From Mobula hypostoma (Eukaryota), in contig NC_086097.1 in NCBI RefSeq assembly GCF_963921235.1, positions 13,950,001-14,014,000 of the forward strand: a stretch of DNA of 64,000 nt, in the 5' to 3' direction. Positions 7,270-63,160 of this stretch are shown here, in pieces. Every line of letters begins with the position of its first letter. Positions within the stretch are counted from its first letter, which is position 1. Position numbers and translations under genes: made by a program. The notes beneath the pieces are model-generated. The model saw nothing but the letters and a program-made list of their open reading frames with translations, did no database searches and was not told where the DNA came from.

Positions 7270-7797
7270 ATTTCAGTGTCCATTCAGAGGTTGGATTGCA
7301 GAGGGGAAGCATCTGCTCCTGAATCAGTGAGTGCATTCCTTCAGGCTTCTGTACTGCCTTCCTGATGGTAGCAACGAGAACAAGGCATGATCTGGGTGAC
7401 GGGGGTCCTTAATGATGGATGCCATCGTTTTGAGAAATTTCTCCTTGAAGATGTTCTGAATACTACGCGCATGATGGAGCTGATTAAGTTTACAGCTCTC
7501 TGCAGCTTACTTTGATTCTGTGCAGTAGTCCTCCCCTCCCGCACCAGATGGTGATACAGCCAGTCTGAATGCTCTCCACGGTACATCTGTAGTAATTTTT
7601 GAGTGTTTCTGGTGACATACCAAATCTCCTCAAACTCCGAATGAAATATAGCTGCTGTTGTGCCTTTGAGGTAACTGCATCAATATGTTGGGTCCAGACT
7701 AGATCCTCAGGGATATTGACATCCAGAAACTTGAAATTGCTCAGCCTTTCCACTTCTGATCCCTCTATGAGGACTGCTGTTTGTTTCCTTGTCTTAT
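7270..7797 (-). mobile_element. Rex1/Babar-type LINE 3' fragment
   Basis: GSEVERLSNFKFLDV...KAQQQLYFIRSLRRFGMS...YRCTVESI. Confidence 0.85.
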
Positions 7798-8046: not shown

Positions 8047-9535
8047 GGGGGTGGAGTAGTTGCATAGTGGTTAGCACAAAGTTTTACAGCACTAGTGACC
8101 TGGGCTCAATTCCCACCGCTGTCTGTAAGGTGATTGTACATTCCCGCCGTGACCATGTGTGTTCCTTTTCTTTTCAAATCATTTTATTATTATTATTATT
8201 ATTCAAAAAATAACATGAGTACATCGAAGTAAGCAACACTTACAATGTCTCAAGGAAAAAAAAAATTATTGTAAAGACTGAAAATTTTTTGTGATAATAA
8301 AAAAACCCTACTAAGCAGAAAAGTAGGAAAAAAAGCCCCATTAGGTGTACAACCCCGGAGTCATGCGTCATACAAAAAGCTTCTAAAGATAAACATCAAA
8401 CCGCCAGCAAGAAAAAAATATACCAGAAATTTACAATTAGATCGTGGAGAAAATCTATCAATTAACTCAAATGATAATAACGAGCAAATGAACCCCATCT
8501 TTTCTCAAAATCAAATAAAGGTTCAAAGGTTCGACTTCTAATTTTCTCCAAACTAAGACATAGCATCACTTGAGAGAACCATTGTGACAAAGTGGGAGCT
8601 GATGTATCCTTCCACTTCAACAAAATGGCCCTCCTGGCTATCAATGTAACAAATGCAATAATATGTTGGTCAGACACAGAGATACCATGGATATTTTGAG
8701 GAATTATTCCAAAAAGCACAGTTAATTTGTTAGGTTGTAAATTAATTTTAAGTGCTTTAGAAATCGTCGAAAAAACTGACTTCCAGAACTGTTCCAATAT
8801 AGAACAAGACCAAAAGATGTGTGTCAGTGTAGCTGTCTCAGTTTTACACCTATCACAATAACTATCAACATTAGGAAATATTTTAGACAGTCTCTCCTTC
8901 GTCAGATGGTAACGACGTACAATTTTAAATTGAATCAGTGAATGACTAGTACAGATTGAAGAAGAGTTAACCAGCTTCAGAATCCACGTCCAATCTTCTG
9001 TCATAAAAATTAAATTGAGTTTCTTTTCCCAATCTTGTTTAATCTTAAATAAAGGACGCTTATCCCATTGTAATAATAAATTATAAATTCTTCTAACAGA
9101 AACCTCATCGAAGGGTTCATACTCATAATGGTATCTAACAGGTCAGCCTCCAATATATAAGAAAAATTACTTAAATATCTTGTAAGAAATGTCTAACCTG
9201 AAGGTATTGTAAGAAGTGTGAGTATGAAAGAGAATATTTATCAAGTAATTGTTCAAAAGACATCAATCTATCTTCTTTAAATAAATCCAAAAAAGAATTA
9301 ATACCTTTATTTTTCCAAAGTAAAAAAATTGGATCACTCAAAGAAGGCTTACCATGTGCGTTTTCTCTGGGTGCTCTGGTTTCCTCTTACAGTCCAAAGA
9401 TGTACTGGTTGGTAGGTTATATGGTCATTGTTAATTGCCCTGTGACAGGGCTAGGATTAGATCTGGGGTTGCTGAGCAGAGCAGTTCAAAAGGCCAGAAG
9501 GGCCTTCTCTGTACTAAATCTCAATAAATTAATTA
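8047..9535 (+). mobile_element. tRNA-derived V-SINE (HE1-like) split by an L1 insertion; SINE parts at 8047-8163 and 9351-9535
   Basis: A-box-like TAGTGGTTAG and B-box-like GGCTCAATTCC; the V-domain (CCCGCCGTGACCATGTG|...GGGTGCTCTGGTTTCCTC) resumes after the insertion. Confidence 0.8.
8164..9350 (-). mobile_element. 5'-truncated L1/Tx1-clade LINE (ORF2 C-terminus and 3' UTR)
   Basis: ORF 8462-9004 contains LIQFKIVRRYHLT, the zinc knuckle CDRC-x7-HIFWSC and ARRAILLKWK; AATAAA plus A-rich end near 8166-8200; TSD ACCATGTG[T/C]GTT at 8152-8163 and 9351-9362. Confidence 0.9.
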
Positions 9536-10545: not shown

Positions 10546-11384
10546 GTCATAGTCATAGTCATAGTCATACTTTATTGATCCCGAGGGAAATTCATTTTTG
10601 TTACAGTTGCGCCATAAATAATTAAATAGTAATAAAACCATAAATAGTTAAACAGTAATATGTAAATTATGCCAGGAAATAAGTCCAGGACCAGCCTATT
10701 GACTCAGGGTGTCTGACCCTCCAAGGGAGGAGTTGTAAAGTTTGATGGCCACAGGCAAGAATGACTTCCTATGACGCTCTGTGCTGCATCTCGGTGGAAT
10801 GAGTCTCTGGCTGAATGTACTCCTGTGCCCACCCAGTACATTATGTAGTGGATGGGAGACATTGTCCAAGATGGCATGCAACTTGGACAGCATCCTCTTC
10901 TCAGACACCACCGTGAGAGAGTCCAGTTCCATCCCCACAACATCACTGGCCTTACGAATGAATTTGTTGATTCTGTTGGTGTCTGCTACACTCAGCCTGC
11001 TGCCCCAGCACACAACAGCAAACATGATCGCACTGGCCACCACAGACTCATAGAACATCCTCAGCATCATCCGGCAGATGTTAAAGGACCTCAGTCTCCT
11101 CAGAAAATAGAGACGGCTCTGACCCTTCTTGTAGACAGCCTCAGTGTTCTTTGACCAGTCCAGTTTATTTTCAATTCGTATCCCCAGGTATTTGTAATCA
11201 TCCAACATGTCCACACTGACCCCCTGCATGGAAACAGGGGTCACCGGTGCCTTAGCTCTCCTCAGATCTACCACCAGCTCCTTAGTCTTGTTCACATTAA
11301 GCTGCAGATAATTGTGCTCACAACATGTGACAAAGTTTCCTACCGTAGCCCTGTACTCAGCCTCATCTCCCTTGCTGATGCATC
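10546..11384 (-). mobile_element. Young Rex1/Babar-type LINE, 5'-truncated
   Basis: Open frame LQLNVNKTKELVVDLRR...YKYLGIRI...KKGQSRLYFLRRLRSF...RKSFLPVAIKLYN; tail reads (GTCATA)n on +. Confidence 0.92.
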
Positions 11385-11705
11385 CTGCTGACATTGAGTG
11401 AGGGGTTGTTGTTGTGGCACAACTCGGCCAGATTTTCATTCTCCTTCCTATGTACAGATTCATCACCACCTTTGATTCAGCCAACGACAGTGGTGTTGTC
11501 AGTAAACTTGAATATGGCTCTGAATCTGTGTTTAGCTTCACAATCATAAATGTAAAGTGAGTAGAGCAGGGGGCCTTGTGGTGTACCTGTGCTGATGGAG
11601 ATCATGCAGCAGATGTTGTTACTATTCTGTACTGACTGGGGTCTGCAGGTGAGGAAATTACACATGGAGGCATGGAGGTATTGAGGTCAAGGTCTCAAAG
11701 CTTAT

Positions 11706-11889
11706 GCAAGGAAATCTGCAGATGCTGGAATTTCAAGCAACACACATAAAAGTTGCTGGTGAACGCAGCAGGCCACGCAGCATCTCTAGGAAGAGGTACA
11801 GTCGATGTTTCGGGCCGAGACCTTGACTGTACCACTTCCTAGAGATGCTGCCTGGCCTGCTGCGTTCACCAGCAACTTTTATGTGTGTT
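11706..11889. mobile_element. PLE-derived foldback (two inverted terminal-repeat arms)
   Basis: Arms ACACACATAAAAGTTGCTGGTGAACGCAGCAGGCCA... and ...TGGCCTGCTGCGTTCACCAGCAACTTTTATGTGTGT are reverse complements; perfect 13-bp TSD TCTCAAAGCTTAT at 11693-11705 and 11890-11902. Confidence 0.9.
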
Positions 11890-18324: not shown

Positions 18325-18550
18325 CACATCAACATGCACCAAATGTTGGAGGAACAAGGAAGTCAGGCATCATCTGAGGACAGGAGAAATCAGTCAACAT
18401 TTTGAGCCAAGACCCTTCAACGGATTGATAGAGGCTCGTGGCCTGACAAGTCAACTGATTATTTCCTCCATAGCTGCTGCCAGTCTTGTTGAGTTTCTCC
18501 CATATTTTGTGTGTGTTTCTCAAAATTTACAGCATCTGCAGAATCTCATG
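18325..18550. mobile_element. Old, degenerate PLE-derived foldback
   Basis: Antisense arm (AAATGTTGGAGGAAC...GACCCTTCA) followed by sense arm (...TTTTGTGTGTGTTTCT...CAGCATCTGCAGAATCTC). Confidence 0.7.
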
Positions 18551-18800
18551 TCATATGACTTGTTACCCATCCCTATTTACAAATCTACATCTGGCTTGCA
18601 GTTCCATTTTAAGGGTGTTTTCAGAATCAACAACCTGCAATTGGTATGGAGTCTTAGAATCATCCTGCACAGAAATGGTCTTACAGCCCAACTTGTCCAT
18701 GCTTACCAAGAATCCCGCCTAAATTCATCCACTTTGCCCATGTTTATCCCATATTCCTCTGACTTTTCCAATTCATAAACGTGTCCAAGTATCTTTAAAA

Positions 18801-19033
18801 CCCCAAACACGAGGAAATCTGCAGGTGCTGGAAATTCAAGCAACACACACAAAATGCTGGTGGAACACAGCAGGCCAGACAGCATCCATAGGAAGAAGTA
18901 CTGTCGACGTTTCGGGCCGAGATCCTTCGTCAGGACTAACTGGTGAAGGATCTCGGCCCAAAGCATCGACTGTGCTTCTTCCTATGGATGTTGTCTGGCC
19001 TGCTGCGTTCCACCAGCATTTTGTGTGTGTTGC
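18801..19033. mobile_element. Young PLE-derived foldback with hammerhead motifs on both arms
   Basis: About 95-bp near-perfect inverted arms centred near 18938; perfect 17-bp TSD TCCAAGTATCTTTAAAA at 18784-18800 and 19034-19050. Confidence 0.92.
18903..18937 (-). ncRNA. Minimal type-I hammerhead ribozyme motif, core intact
   Basis: Minus strand reads AGUC-CUGACGA-AGGAUCUCGGCCC-GAAA-CGUC^GAC: conserved boxes, GUC cleavage triplet, stem I GUC/GAC and palindromic ACGU stem III. Confidence 0.7.
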
Positions 19034-19764
19034 TCCAAGTATCTTTAAAATGTTTTCAAGCATCTGCAGAATCTCTTGTGTGTATCTTTAAAGTGTTGTT
19101 AGCACACCAGCCACAAAGAGTCATAGAAAAGCTCAGCACTGAAACTGGCCCCTTGGCCCATCTAGTACATGCCAAACCATTTAAACTGCCTACCCCTGTC
19201 GACCATAGCCTTCCATAGCCCTACCATCCACGTACCCACCCAAACTCTGTTAAGTGTTGAAATTGAGCTCACATTTACTGCTCCACACACCCATGACCCT
19301 AAGTGAAGAAATTTCCCCTCATATCTCCCCAAAGTATCTCACCTTTCACCCTTAACCCATGATTTCTCATTGAAGTCTCACCCAGCCTCAGTTTTCTGTC
19401 AGCTAATTCCATAAATTGAACTTCCTCTGGGGTGAACCCTCAAGTTCTATTAAATTTCAGCACCGCAACTTATATCTATGCCTTCCAGTATATTCAACAC
19501 AAATTACGTGAAGTTAAAAATAAGCCAGATGAAATAAGGAGAGTCAATTTCCTTTCAAGACCATATTTATTTTTATGACACACTGCTAGTTACTTTGGTG
19601 ATCTAGCTGATGAAAATTCCAATTTATAAACTGAATTTAAATCCCTCATATAGCTCAGAATTTGATCTCTGGATTATTACTGAGGCAATTAACCACAGTT
19701 CCCCAACATACACTAACGTGCATTGGTGTCAAAGTTTAGCTAACAATTCCTCTGTGAAGAATTC

Positions 19765-27974: not shown

Positions 27975-28300
27975 CCTACCTCTGGTGCTCCTCTCCCTTC
28001 CCTTTCTTCCATGGTCTTCTGTCGTCTCCTGTCAGATTCTCTCTTCTCCAGCCCTTTATCTCCTTCGGCAATGGACTTCCCAGCTCTTTGTTTCACCCCT
28101 CCCTGTCTCCTGGTTTCACTGATCACCTGCCACCTTGTACTTCTTCCTCTCCTCTCGCCCCTAATTTCTCACTCTGACTTCTTCCCCTTTCCTTTTCAGT
28201 CCCGATGAAGGGTCCCGGCCCGAAACGTCGATCCTTCACTCTTTTCCATAGATGCTGCCAGGCCTGCTGAGTTCCTCCAGCATTTTGAGTGTGTTGCTCA
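27975..28300 (+). mobile_element. PLE 3' UTR and terminal repeat with a near-consensus hammerhead motif (28197-28235, U4>C)
   Basis: Pyrimidine-rich UTR, then CAGTC-CCGATGA-AGGGTCCCGGCCC-GAAA-CGTC-GA, then ATAGATGCTGCC...GAGTTCCTCCAGCATTTTG. Confidence 0.85.
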
Positions 28301-42302: not shown

Positions 42303-44510
42303 GAACAAAGGGGGACTATGGACCCATGAGGGAGGAGCTGGCCAAAGTCGACTGGAAAGATACCCTAGCAGGGACGACAGTGGAACAACAATGGCAGGTA
42401 TTTCTGGGAATAATACAGAAGGTGCAGGATCAGTTCGTTCCAAAGAGGAAGAAAGATTCTAAAGGGGAGAAAAGGGTGACCGTGGATGACAAGGGAAGTC
42501 AAGGACAGTATAAAAATAGAAGAGAGGAAGTATAGTATAGCAAGGATGAGCGGGAAGCCAGAGGATTGGGAGACTTTTGAGGAGCAACAGAAGATAACTA
42601 AAAAGGCAATACGGAGGGAAAAGATGGGGTACGAAGGGAAGCTAACCAAGAATATAAAGGAGGATAGTAAAAGCTTCTTTCGGTATGTGAAGAGGAAAAA
42701 TTAGTTAAGACCAAAGTTGGGCCCTTGAAGATAGAAACGGGTGAAATTATTGTGGGGAGCAAGGAAATGGCAGACGAGCTGAACAGGTACTTTGGATCTG
42801 TCTTCACGAGGGAAGACACAAACAATCTCCCAGATGTAATAGTGGCTAGAGGACCTAGGGTAACAGAGGAACTGAAGGAAATTCGCATCAGGCAGAAAAT
42901 GGTGTTGGATAGACTGATGGGACTGAAGGCTGATAAATCCCCAGGGCCTGATGGTCTGCATTCCAGGGTACTTACGGAGGTGGGTCCAGAAATCGTGGAC
43001 ACATTGGTAATCATTTTCCAATGTTCTAATAGATTCAGGATCAGTTCCTGCGGATTGGAGACTAGCTAATGTTATCCCACTTTTTAAGAAAGGAGGGAGA
43101 GAGAAAACAGGCAATTATAAACCACTTAGTCTGACAACAGTGGTGGGGAAGATGCTGGAATCAATTATAAAAGATGAAATAGCGGCATATTTAAATAGCA
43201 GTAGCAGGATAGGTCCGAGTCAGCATGGATTTACGAAGGGGAAATCATGCTTGACTAATCTTCTGGAATTTTTTGAGAATGTAACTATGAAAATGGACAT
43301 GGGAAAGCCAGTGGATGTAGTGTACCTGGACTTTCAGAAAACCTTTGATAAGGTCCCACATAGGAGGTTAGTGGGCAAAATTAGAGCAAATGGTATTGGG
43401 GGTAGGGTACTAACATGGATAGAAAATTGGTTGGCAGATAGGAAACAAAGAGTAGGGATTAATGGGTCCTTCTCAGAATGGCAGGCAGTGACTAGTTGGG
43501 TACCACAAGGCTCGGTGCTGGGACCGCAGCTATTTACAATATACAGTAATGATTTAGATGAAGGGATTAAAAGTAACATTAGCAAATCTGAAGATGACAC
43601 AAAGCTGTGTGGCAGTGAGGAGGATGTTATGAGAATGCAGGATGACTTGGACAGGTTGGGTGAGTGGGCAGATGCAGTTTAATGAGGATAAATGTGAGGT
43701 TACCCACTTTATGGCAAGAACAGGAAGGCAGATTACTATCTGAATGGTGTCAAGTTATGAAAAGGGGAAGTACAACGAGATCTAGGTGTCTTTGTTCATC
43801 AGCCACTGAAAGTAATCATGCAGGTACAGCAGGCAGTGAAGAAAGCTAATGGCATGTTGGCCTTCAGAACAAGGGGAGTTGAGTATAGGAGCAAGGAGGT
43901 CCTTCTGCAGTTGTATAGGGCCCTGGTGAGACCACACCAGTATTGTGTACAGTTTTGGTCTCCAAATTTGAGGAGGAACTTTCTAGCTATTGAACGAGTG
44001 CAGCATAGGTTCACAAGGTTAATTTCGGGATGGTGGGACTGTCATATGTTGAAAGATTGGAGCAACTGGGCTTGTATACACTGGAATTTAGAAGGATAAG
44101 AGGGGATCTGATTGAAACATATAAGATTATTAAGGAATTGGACACTCTAGAGGCAGGAAACATGTTCCCGATGTTTGGGGAGTCCAGAGCCAGAGGCCAC
44201 AGTTTAAGAATAAGGGGTAGACAATTTAGAATGGAGTTGAGGAAAAACTTTTTCACACAGGGGGTTGTGATTCTATGGAATGCTCTGCCTCAGAAGGCAG
44301 TGGAGGCCAATTCACTGGATTCTTTCAAGAAAGAGTTAGATAGAGCTCTTAAAAATAGCAGAGTCAAGGGATATGAGGAGAAGGCAGGAAAAGGGTACTG
44401 ATTGTGAATGATCAGCCCATGATCACAGTGAATGGCGGTGCTGGCTCGAAGGGCTGAATGGCCTACTCCTGCACCTATTGTCTATTGTCTACTGTCTATT
44501 GTCTATTGTA
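42303..44510 (+). mobile_element. CR1/HER1-type LINE, ~2.2 kb of ORF2 including the RT domain, several frameshifts; nested in a Rex1 3' end
   Basis: KSPGPDGLH, NYKPLSLT, QHGFTKGKSCLTNLLEFFE, YLDFQKTFDKVPH, VPQGSVLGPQLF, DDTKL, FFTQGVVILWNALP; (TCTATTG)n tail. Confidence 0.95.
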
Positions 44511-62677: not shown

Positions 62678-63160
62678 AATGCACAAAGTGCTGGAAGATC
62701 AGGAACCATCTGTCAAAGGAAATGGAGTCAAATCTTCACATCAAGACCCTTTATATGAGTCCAGAACCTAGACTGTCCATTTCCTCCACAGATTAATTAC
62801 TTGTTTATTTATTGGGATACAGCATGGAATAGGCCCTTCCAACCCTTGGAGCACACCATACAGCAATCCCCCAGTTTAACCCCAGTCTAATCACAGCACA
62901 ATTTACACTGACCAATTAACCTACCAACCAGTATGTCTTTGGACTGTGGGAGGAAACAGGAGCACCAAAAGGAAACCCAGATAATCACAGGAAGAAAGTA
63001 TAGACTCCTTAAAGGCAATGACAGGAATTAAACTGGTGTTGTAAAGTGATGTGCTAACCACTACGCCACCATACCACTGCAGATTATGCCTGACCTGTTG
63101 AATTTCTCCAGCCTTTTTTGTATTGCTCCAGACTCCAGCATCTGTGGTATTTTATGTCAT
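62678..63160. mobile_element. Old PLE-derived foldback split by a V-SINE (-, about 62795-63076)
   Basis: Arms GCACAAAGTGCTGGAAG...CAAGACCCTT and ...GCCTGACCTGTTGAATTTCTCCAGC...CCAGCATCTG flank the SINE. Confidence 0.65.

What the first reader, a model, noticed from the sequence alone, without database searches (positions are those of the whole stretch)
18784..19050. Protein-free foldback retroelement: two inverted PLE repeats meeting at the ribozyme, 17-bp TSD
Seen in sequence: a 233-bp insert with about 95-bp near-perfect inverted arms. The apex lies at the 5' side of the hammerhead, so each strand carries a hammerhead motif (intact on -, decayed on +). Both arms share the same variant (GGATCTCGG instead of GGGTCTCGG), suggesting one was templated from the other. 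One arm carries the terminal TTCCAGCA..CTGCAGA extension and the other stops at GTGTGTTGC. Related foldbacks occur at 11706, 18325, 21972, 24956, 33273 and 62678, most with the same long-arm/short-arm asymmetry. Established: PLE insertions often carry an inverted terminal repeat at the 5' end. Inference: this is the minimal version, a MITE-looking but RNA-mobilised, ribozyme-centred unit. It may be a self-propagating non-autonomous family or may be re-created at each insertion; either way it would seed dsRNA hairpins in host transcripts.
Basis: partly seen in the sequence, partly recalled or inferred. Interest (0 to 1): 0.8.

Follow-up and report, generated by a model that had tools for sequence, protein, structure and literature searches.

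The report
Minimal Penelope-like foldback insertion
This 233-base hairpin-shaped insert is a dead by-product of a Penelope-like retrotransposon, which pasted in two short copies of its own start region head to head, a known habit of these elements seen here in its smallest form.

Summary
Window 18801-19033 is a 233-bp insert between exact 17-bp target-site duplications. It has 95-nt inverted arms (91% complementary) that meet at the 5' edge of a hammerhead motif.

It is not a self-propagating element. The arms are copies of the hammerhead-to-"tail" module at the start of an autonomous Penelope-like element (PLE) in the same genome, with an RT open frame downstream and a GIY-YIG endonuclease upstream.

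Evidence from 41 foldbacks in 351 kb of this genome:
- Each has its own variable flanking repeat (9-19 bp in 34 of 41).
- Among the 39 foldbacks with one long and one short tail, 38 apex configurations are distinct.
- Their nearest relatives are single copies, including a full-length PLE.

So foldbacks are re-made at each insertion.

One arm ends at the distal RT start site (with the 39-nt tail) and the other at the proximal one, in 13 of 13 unbiased and 26 of 27 search-selected loci. Single copies split 27:27. This fits published biochemistry, in which a PLE protein extends both DNA strands from two adjacent internal start sites.

This copy is old and both of its ribozyme motifs are damaged. 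Head-to-head repeats with a one-sided tail are a published PLE hallmark, so novelty is modest. The strict pairing of the two start sites is the new detail.

The parts
18784..18800 (.). Left copy of the 17-bp target-site duplication (TCCAAGTATCTTTAAAA).
   Evidence: D3, 100% identical to 19034-19050.
18801..18839 (-). 39-nt 'tail' of the long arm. This is the stretch between the proximal and distal reverse-transcription start sites. Its outer end is the distal start.
   Evidence: arm HMM positions 101-137. Homologous to L040:7605-7640, which runs on into the PLE open frame. Tail concept from PMC11167929.
18840..18939 (-). Body of the long arm (arm positions 1-100). The hammerhead motif is at 18901-18938 and the predicted cleavage site lies between 18906 and 18905. 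The core is intact; helix I and helix II each carry one mismatch.
18934..18939 (.). 6-nt apex spacer (GACTAA on the + strand). These are the extra 5' nucleotides of the long arm that the short arm lacks.
   Evidence: I1: 6 nt between arms.
18940..19033 (+). Short arm (arm positions 7-100), ending at the proximal start site without a tail. Its hammerhead core is destroyed (A6>G, G12>A, A15.1>G).
19034..19050 (.). Right copy of the 17-bp target-site duplication.
   Evidence: D3.
19055..19081 (+). 27-nt tail-only PLE fragment between 16-nt direct repeats (19039-19054 / 19082-19097). Most likely a separate, extremely 5'-truncated insertion into the same site. The order of the two events is unresolved.
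   Evidence: In one search nhmmer runs the right arm on to 19082 across an insertion.. The fragment differs from the foldback's own tail at 6 of 28 aligned nt (read).

Best explanation
The insert is one dead, ORF-less integration event made by the RT/endonuclease of a Penelope-like element (PLE).

Template: the first ~100-140 nt of the PLE transcript. In order these are the hammerhead motif, a ~65-nt body, the proximal RT start site, a 39-nt tail, and the distal RT start site.

Proposed mechanism:
1. The endonuclease made a staggered double-strand break 17 bp wide.
2. Both 3' ends primed reverse transcription, one at the distal start (long arm with tail) and one at the proximal start (short arm).
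3. [quoted passage not shown]
4. They were joined end to end there, giving a head-to-head inverted repeat with the RT start sites facing outward.

The foldback is therefore re-created at each insertion. It lacks a promoter and does not propagate as a foldback.

Shown: the anatomy, the duplications, the homology to an RT/GIY-YIG element, the locus-specific apices, and the one-long/one-short rule.
Inferred: priming on both strands in vivo, one RNA or one RNP serving both primers, and the end-to-end joining.
For: Link to an autonomous PLE:
- In L040 a partial pLTR is followed by the hammerhead at 7505 and the tail ending at 7640. The sequence then runs into an 802-codon open frame reaching the locus end. 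That frame has an RVT_1 match and a YIDD motif.
- In L034 a GIY-YIG domain (25.6 bits, cut-off 22.6) ends about 290 nt upstream of the same hammerhead module.

Foldbacks in 351,054 held bases:
- 139 arm hits, forming 41 foldbacks.
- 34 of 41 have a flanking repeat of 9-19 bp (median 13).
- 38 distinct apex configurations among the 39 foldbacks with one long and one short tail.
- One arm can extend into the pLTR, by 20 nt in L027 and 174 nt in L033.

Tail pairing:
- 13 of 13 unbiased and 26 of 27 search-selected foldbacks pair one long with one short tail.
- Singles are 27 long and 27 short.
- P = 1.2e-4 for 13 of 13 if the arms were independent.

No separate foldback lineage:
- The nearest non-partner relative of an unbiased foldback arm is a single copy in 18 of 23 cases.
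- The youngest foldback (L017:999-1221, arms 91/92 identical) is 97.8-98.9% identical to the full-length copy in L040.

Chance: adjacency of two arms is expected for about 1.6% of arms, against 26 of 83 observed.

Published biochemistry (PMC11167929, main text read): the Anolis PLE protein cleaves and extends both strands. Reverse transcription starts at two adjacent internal sites, and the tail is the stretch between them.
Against: - No direct evidence that both strands prime in vivo.
- Both arms copy the same RNA stretch. So one RNA would have to be copied twice, or two RNAs used. In the second case the strict long/short pairing has no ready explanation.
- The in vitro study saw no difference in start site between the strands.
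- For this locus alone, the long arm is also the longer one at the apex. Snap-back copying with a stop at the proximal site is therefore not excluded here.
- The RVT_1 match in L040 is below Pfam's cut-off (24.3 against 29.6 bits). RT and endonuclease were seen on different copies.
- Three of the 41 short arms end inside the body (positions 64, 82 and 96) rather than at the proximal site.
- The unbiased sample is small (13-14 foldbacks).
Confidence: 0.72

Rival explanations
1. Snap-back self-priming. A single cDNA reaches the template's 5' end, folds back and copies itself, so that one arm is templated from the other.
For: - Arms within a locus share subfamily variants. Here that applies to positions 17, 53 and 61.
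- Small palindromes and loops occur at many apices.
- At this locus the tail-bearing arm is also the one that extends further at the apex.
- PMC3846280 (passages) infers self-priming from palindromes at inverted junctions.
Against: - In 6 loci the tail-bearing arm starts 10 nt or more later than its tail-less partner. In 20 of 39 it starts later by any margin. A tail cannot be copied from an arm that has none.
- The model needs copying to stop at the proximal site every time.
- It predicts short/short foldbacks from proximal-primed cDNAs. None was seen in 13 unbiased loci.
Confidence: 0.15
2. A self-propagating non-autonomous foldback family. A master hairpin element is transcribed and copied whole by PLE RT.
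For: The own-genome search returned 80 matches among the 40 candidates scored, the foldbacks they represent being 80-91% identical over nearly the whole 233 bp. There were 6552 first-look candidates. L001, L023 and L027 share a similar GGACTAACTG apex.
Against: - That search was biased towards full-length look-alikes.
- Apices differ in 38 of 39 loci.
- L023 belongs to a different subfamily from L001 despite the similar apex. The L027 apex is in fact a 20-nt run-on into the pLTR.
- Both outer ends sit at RT start sites directly against the duplications. There is no 5' transduction and no outer-end truncation.
- Foldback arms do not cluster apart from singles (18 of 23 nearest neighbours are singles).
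- Foldbacks occur in several subfamilies.
Confidence: 0.06
3. Two independent PLE fragments that inserted next to each other in opposite orientation.
For: PLE copies are dense (139 arm hits in 351 kb). The family appears to hit the same sites repeatedly: there is a tail-only fragment at 19055-19081, and 6 of 27 selected loci have a second foldback within 1.5 kb.
Against: - One 17-bp duplication flanks the pair as a whole.
- The arms share a rare variant (10 of 116 copies).
- Chance adjacency is about 1.6% per arm, against 31% observed.
- The strict long/short pairing is unexplained by this model.
Confidence: 0.04
4. A MITE-type DNA transposon with terminal inverted repeats.
For: Hairpin shape, small size and flanking direct repeats.
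Against: - Flanking repeat length varies from 9 to 19 bp.
- The arms are homologous to the 5' module of an RT/GIY-YIG retroelement.
- The termini are asymmetric (a tail on one side only).
- The inner ends vary between loci.
Confidence: 0.01

Closest known systems
Canonical EN+ Penelope-like element insertions with inverted pLTRs and a one-sided 'tail'. Sources: Arkhipova et al. 2013, PMC3846280 (passages read); Craig et al. 2021, PMC8557442 (passages read).
   Same: - Head-to-head inverted 5'-truncated copy.
- A 30-40 bp tail at only one end.
- Variable-length target-site duplication.
- Hammerhead at the pLTR-ORF junction.
- RT plus GIY-YIG partner element.
   Different: There is no ORF and no direct pLTR between the inverted parts. 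Only the ~100/139-nt 5' module is present on each side. The form is very abundant here: about 20% of the family's insertion events in the unbiased sample, which suggests tens of thousands genome-wide by rough extrapolation.
In vitro behaviour of the Anolis Poseidon PLE protein (Frangieh et al. 2024, PMC11167929; main text read).
   Same: - Two adjacent internal RT start sites, with the tail between them.
- Both DNA strands are cleaved and extended.
- The hammerhead is dispensable for insertion.
- AT-leaning targets (duplications here are 66% A+T against a 57% background).
   Different: - In vitro the start site did not differ between strands. In these genomic foldbacks each site is used once.
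- In L040 the first in-frame ATG lies at the proximal start site, so the tail covers the first codons of the frame. In the Anolis element the start sites lie about 111-118 nt into the ORF.
LINE-1 twin-priming inversions
   Same: The second DNA end primes reverse transcription at an internal site of the RNA, giving an inverted segment within one duplication-flanked insertion.
   Different: L1 twin priming inverts adjacent, non-duplicated segments and uses homology-guided annealing. Here both arms duplicate the same RNA stretch, and the internal site is a dedicated start site in 38 of 41 loci.
Animal non-LTR retrozymes. Sources: bioRxiv 10.64898/2026.07.22.740005 (abstract and passages read); Cervera and de la Pena 2014, PMC4209133 (passages read).
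   Same: Short ORF-less hammerhead-bearing PLE derivatives. The 2014 paper mentions pairs of minimal hammerheads 100-700 bp apart on opposite strands.
   Different: Retrozymes are tandem, head-to-tail, and thought to move through circular RNA. This unit is inverted, is not tandem, and shows no sign of autonomous propagation.

Membership tests
EN+ Penelope-like element (insertion product) | Partner element encoding RT plus a GIY-YIG endonuclease | tested here: met
   GIY-YIG scores 25.6 bits against a cut-off of 22.6 in L034:8111-8497, about 290 nt upstream of the same hammerhead module. The 802-codon open frame after the module in L040 has an RVT_1 match at E = 3e-5, which at 24.3 bits is below the 29.6 cut-off, and a YIDD motif. 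RT and EN were seen on different copies, linked by 86-90% identical pLTR/hammerhead sequence. Atlas look-alikes are RT clusters of rotifers, chordates and arthropods; this is a lead only.
EN+ Penelope-like element (insertion product) | 30-40 bp tail present at one end only | tested here: met
   A 39-nt tail sits on the - strand arm only. The same holds in 13 of 13 unbiased and 26 of 27 selected foldbacks.
EN+ Penelope-like element (insertion product) | Head-to-head inverted 5'-truncated copy inside one target-site duplication of variable length | tested here: met
   17-bp duplication here. Flanking repeats of 9-19 bp in 34 of 41 foldbacks.
EN+ Penelope-like element (insertion product) | pLTR / partial tandem organisation | tested here: not met
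   This locus has no direct repeat or pLTR body. The family does show them elsewhere: a partial pLTR before the ORF in L040, and hammerhead units about 410-440 bp and about 1 kb apart in L008, L026 and L015.
Hammerhead ribozyme, type I, PLE variety | [quoted passage not shown] | tested here: met
   The family majority and the - strand arm match every listed position. Criteria are from PMC4209133. The + strand arm fails at A6, G12 and A15.1.
Hammerhead ribozyme, type I, PLE variety | Match to a curated covariance model (Rfam hammerhead families) | tested here: not met
   No hammerhead hit at gathering score in the window. None at E <= 10 in 18700-19150 or in the young copy L040:7420-7700.
Hammerhead ribozyme, type I, PLE variety | Covariation supporting helices I and II; self-cleavage | tested here: inconclusive
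   Paired fractions equal what independent columns would give, for example 102/110 observed against 100.8 expected. The copies are neutral relics. Self-cleavage is not testable with these tools.
MITE / DNA transposon | Fixed-length target-site duplication and symmetric terminal inverted repeats | tested here: not met
   Flanking repeat lengths range from 9 to 19 bp. The termini are asymmetric.
Animal non-LTR retrozyme | Head-to-tail tandem hammerhead repeats yielding circular RNA | tested here: not met
   The arms are inverted, not tandem. Circular RNA is not testable here.

The most novel reading that the evidence does not exclude
The strict pairing of one distal-start arm with one proximal-start arm may be a footprint of the PLE integration complex. 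A single RNP, possibly a dimer on one RNA, would offer its two adjacent start sites to the two ends of the staggered break, one each. The mini-foldbacks would then be in vivo records of obligately asymmetric priming on both strands. As a by-product, this genome would have been seeded with tens of thousands of initially perfect ~95-bp hairpins that could feed dsRNA, small-RNA or editing pathways.
Probability: 0.35. Interest if true: 0.6.

Novelty: new member of a known kind. Interest (0 to 1): 0.38.

Why it matters
PLE integration is still poorly understood. Why PLE insertions carry inverted repeats and a one-sided tail has been an open question since their discovery, and the first in vitro system dates only from 2024.

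These abundant ORF-less foldbacks are the simplest natural products of that reaction. Each one records two start sites, two cDNA ends and one target-site duplication in about 230 bp. That makes three models countable from genome sequence alone: priming on both strands, snap-back, and master-copy propagation.

For genome annotation, the result means these MITE-like hairpins should be filed as PLE debris and not as a separate transposon family. Any role as a source of hairpin RNA remains untested.

Tried and rejected
- **Rfam.** No hammerhead hit at gathering score or at E <= 10. There were only sub-threshold miRNA-hairpin hits caused by the palindrome, and an insignificant UnaL2 match to the tail stem-loop (E = 2.7).
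- **Public runs**. No run held more than 0.11 of the sampled words. Contigs from four runs covered only the repeat (18785-19084) and another repeat at 19110-19260, not the unique flanks. Their kind was a guess ("RNA?"). So there is no locus-specific evidence on expression, editing or empty sites.
- **The search of earlier findings**. It held nothing for this genome.
- **More genome DNA.** The autonomous element's endonuclease end and a larger census were therefore not obtained.
- **Which arm is more truncated.** I tested whether the short-tail arm is systematically the more 5'-complete one. It is not significant (8 against 4 unbiased, Wilcoxon p = 0.10; 20 against 16 overall, p = 0.37).
- **Hammerhead cleavage as the apex.** Rejected. 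The cleavage site is at arm position 34|35, and only about 2 of 82 foldback arms start at positions 33-37.
- **RNA fold of the single unit.** L040:7498-7650 is not more stable than shuffles (z = -0.29).
- **Partner arm as nearest relative.** True in only 3 of 41 loci. This is uninformative, because younger copies elsewhere sit closer to the source.
- **Literature.** Searches listed no paper that describes ORF-less PLE mini-foldbacks as such. The listings and the passages cited are all that I saw.

Full report
**1. The observation**

Window 18801-19033 is a 233-bp insert. It lies between exact 17-nt direct repeats, TCCAAGTATCTTTAAAA, at 18784-18800 and 19034-19050. It consists of two inverted arms, 18839-18933 and 18940-19034. 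These are 95 nt long, 91% complementary and 6 nt apart.

As RNA the insert folds into a single hairpin of -178.7 kcal/mol. The z-score is -23.7, and 0 of 200 shuffles fold as well.

Read on the - strand, the left arm is a 139-nt unit with these parts, in order:
- a hammerhead-like motif;
- about 65 nt of body ending in GTGTGTTGC;
- a 39-nt terminal extension.

The right arm starts at the CTG of the motif and stops at GTGTGTTGC.

Both arms carry A at arm position 17, a variant seen in 10 of 116 copies. They differ at 9 of 94 compared positions, and four of those differences are CpG-type transitions.

The one at 62678 is not: it gives one weak hit and no inverted repeat.

**2. The hammerhead**

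The family majority and the - strand arm match the PLE-type type I hammerhead at these features (criteria from passages of PMC4209133):
- CUGANGA;
- one extra A before helix II;
- a 4-bp helix II starting with G-C;
- GAA;
- a palindromic ACGU in place of helix III;
- C17;
- a 5-bp helix I.

No Rfam hammerhead model matches, even at E <= 10, either here or in a young copy. Pairing in the family alignment is no better than independent columns would give. The assignment therefore rests on the motif match and on context.

In this copy the - strand motif has one mismatch in helix II and one in helix I. The + strand motif has lost A6, G12 and A15.1. Neither is likely to be active.

The predicted cleavage site lies 28-34 nt inside each arm, not at the apex.

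**3. Where the arms come from**

The window holds about 30 arm hits. The own-genome search gave 6552 first-look candidates, and the top places are all full foldbacks, 80-91% identical.

Many single copies run on upstream of the hammerhead into a pyrimidine-rich sequence of two types.

Two loci tie the module to an autonomous element:
- **L040.** This upstream sequence, the hammerhead (7505) and the tail (ending at 7640) continue into an 802-codon open frame that reaches the end of the locus. The frame has an RVT_1 match (E = 3e-5, below Pfam's cut-off) and a YIDD motif.
- **L034 and L042.** An open frame with a GIY-YIG domain (25.6 bits against a cut-off of 22.6) ends about 290 nt upstream of the same module.

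An RT joined to a GIY-YIG endonuclease is the signature of endonuclease-bearing Penelope-like elements (established knowledge; PMC8557442, PMC3846280). The arms are therefore the 5' hammerhead-to-tail module of an autonomous PLE family in this genome.

**4. Master copy or re-made each time**

I held 351,054 bases:
- the window;
- 27 loci selected by likeness to the foldback;
- 20 arbitrary 10-kb stretches.

A profile of the arm found 139 hits. Adjacent (-)(+) pairs gave 41 foldbacks: 1 is the finding itself, 27 were selected by the search, and 13 were incidental and so unbiased.

Results:
- **(a) Flanking repeats.** 34 of 41 foldbacks have their own flanking repeat of 9-19 bp, median 13. The other 7 gave only 4-7 nt matches by my automatic search.
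- **(b) Outer ends.** These sit at two places only: the end of the tail or the end of the body. The exceptions are three short arms ending at positions 64, 82 and 96.
- **(c) Inner ends.** These vary. There are 38 distinct combinations among the 39 foldbacks with one long and one short tail. In L027 and L033 one arm runs 20 and 174 nt into the upstream sequence.
- **(d) No separate lineage.** Foldback arms do not form their own lineage. The nearest non-partner relative of an unbiased foldback arm is a single copy in 18 of 23 cases, while singles make up about 70% of the candidates.
- **(e) The youngest foldback.** L017:999-1221 has arms 91/92 identical and a 13-bp duplication. Each arm is 97.8-98.9% identical to the full-length copy in L040.
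- **(f) Chance adjacency.** About 1.6% of arms would sit next to another arm by chance. In the unbiased set 26 of 83 do.

Together these results argue against a propagating master foldback, against two independent insertions, and against a DNA transposon.

**5. The long/short rule**

Among single copies the outer end is at the tail end in 27 and at the body end in 27.

Among foldbacks, 13 of 13 unbiased and 26 of 27 selected loci pair one of each. If the arms were independent, P = 1.2e-4 for the unbiased set. For the selected set P = 2.6e-4, after allowing for the search's bias against short/short pairs.

The two loci scored long/long are L023, where the apparent tail is a weak match beyond the duplication, and the finding itself (see section 6).

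A foldback with a 176-nt gap in L033 also pairs long with short.

Passages of PMC3846280 and PMC8557442 already state that the tail is present at one end only. The strictness of the pairing, set against a 1:1 ratio in singles, is what this analysis adds.

**6. The extra tail fragment**

nhmmer carried the right arm across a 20-nt insertion to 19082.

The stretch 19055-19081 is a 27-nt tail-only fragment lying between 16-nt direct repeats (19039-19054 / 19082-19097, one mismatch). As a result GTATCTTTAAA occurs three times, at 18789, 19039 and 19082.

The fragment differs from the foldback's own tail at 6 of 28 aligned positions, whereas the arms differ by about 10%. It also resembles the tail variant of the other upstream type.

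I read it as a second, extremely truncated insertion into the same site. The order of the two events is unresolved, and a single complex event is not excluded.

It fits the report, cited in PMC11167929, that the endonuclease recognises tail-containing DNA. It also fits the clustering I saw: 6 of 27 selected loci have a second foldback within 1.5 kb, against 2 per 200 kb in the arbitrary stretches.

**7. Mechanism**

PMC11167929 (main text read) shows the following for an Anolis PLE protein:
- it cleaves and extends both strands;
- it starts reverse transcription at two adjacent internal sites that are not homologous to the target;
- the tail is the stretch between those sites;
- the hammerhead is not needed for insertion.

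The foldbacks are what that chemistry predicts when both ends of one staggered break prime on the 5'-proximal module: two converging cDNAs, start sites facing outward, joined near the template's 5' end.

Snap-back copying of one arm from the other cannot be the general route. In 6 loci the tail-bearing arm starts 10 nt or more later than its tail-less partner, and in 20 of 39 it starts later by any margin. A tail cannot be copied from an arm that lacks one. For this particular locus snap-back is not excluded.

Why each start site is used exactly once is inferred, not shown. A single RNP or a single RNA serving both primers would do it, but the same RNA stretch would then have to be copied twice.

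**8. What sets the apex**

Arm inner ends pile up within about 6 nt of (C/T)(C/T)AGTCC, at the 5' edge of helix I. So do the 5' ends of 11 single copies that do not run on upstream. By comparison, 17 single-copy ends are spread over the next 92 nt.

This hot spot is not the hammerhead cleavage site.

The motif fits the initiator consensus YYANWYY. That consensus is recalled, not taken from a call. PMC3846280 notes initiator-like motifs in pLTRs.

A transcription start there is my guess and is untested. Some copies carry 10-13 extra nucleotides at this end.

**9. Comparison and novelty**

The structure is the smallest form of a published PLE hallmark: head-to-head inverted pLTRs with a tail on one of them. 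It is not a retrozyme, because it is inverted and not tandem. It is not a MITE.

Four literature searches listed no description of ORF-less PLE mini-foldbacks as a class.

A rough extrapolation from 2-3 foldbacks and 32 arm hits in 200 kb of arbitrary sequence gives on the order of 10^4-10^5 foldbacks and about 5 x 10^5 arms genome-wide. The Poisson range is wide.

**10. Limits**

- The unbiased sample is small.
- No relatives, no usable RNA data and no further genome DNA could be examined.
- Whether the locus lies in a transcribed gene was not determined.
- RT and endonuclease were seen on different copies.
- Supplements of the cited papers were not opened.

Noticed in passing
window 19055-19081 (direct repeats 19039-19054 / 19082-19097): A 27-nt tail-only PLE fragment with its own 16-nt flanking repeat sits directly after the foldback's right duplication. 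The same target motif GTATCTTTAAA is present three times.
   Followed up: partly
window 18328-18550: An older foldback of the same family lies 250 bp upstream. Its arms are 57/89 identical and it pairs a short with a long tail. Six of 27 selected loci likewise have a second foldback within 1.5 kb, which suggests clustering or homing.
   Followed up: partly
L040:7250-10000 (G000:C18:40000001-40010000): A PLE copy in which a partial pLTR, the hammerhead and the tail run into an 802-codon open frame reaching the locus end. The first in-frame ATG lies inside the GTATGTTGC proximal start site.
   Followed up: partly
L008, L026 and L015 (offsets): Hammerhead units repeat head to tail, about 410-440 bp apart in L008 and L026 and about 1 kb apart in L015. 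These are retrozyme-like or partial-tandem arrays of the same family.
   Followed up: no
Upstream of the hammerhead in many copies, e.g. window 28140-28200 and L040:7470-7500: The pLTR ends in a long pyrimidine run followed by CAG. This looks like a 3' splice acceptor, and the (C/T)(C/T)AGTCC that follows fits an initiator motif. Passages of PMC4209133 note that an intron end maps to helix I in the Drosophila virilis Penelope.
   Followed up: no
L040:7583-7636: The tail region gives a weak, insignificant Rfam match (E = 2.7) to the UnaL2 LINE 3' stem-loop. A small stem-loop may sit between the two RT start sites.
   Followed up: no
window 19110-19260: An unrelated high-copy repeat. Contigs from four other runs pile up here as well as on the foldback.
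   Followed up: no
window 43011-43679, 8465-9142 and 10699-11601: Open frames with RVT_1, zf-RVT and ALKBH8_N matches. The window is rich in other retroelement remains.
   Followed up: no
Loose ends at 18804: In contigs from other runs, the sequence outside the distal (tail) end of family copies is strongly A/T-rich. This is in line with an AT-leaning target preference.
   Followed up: no
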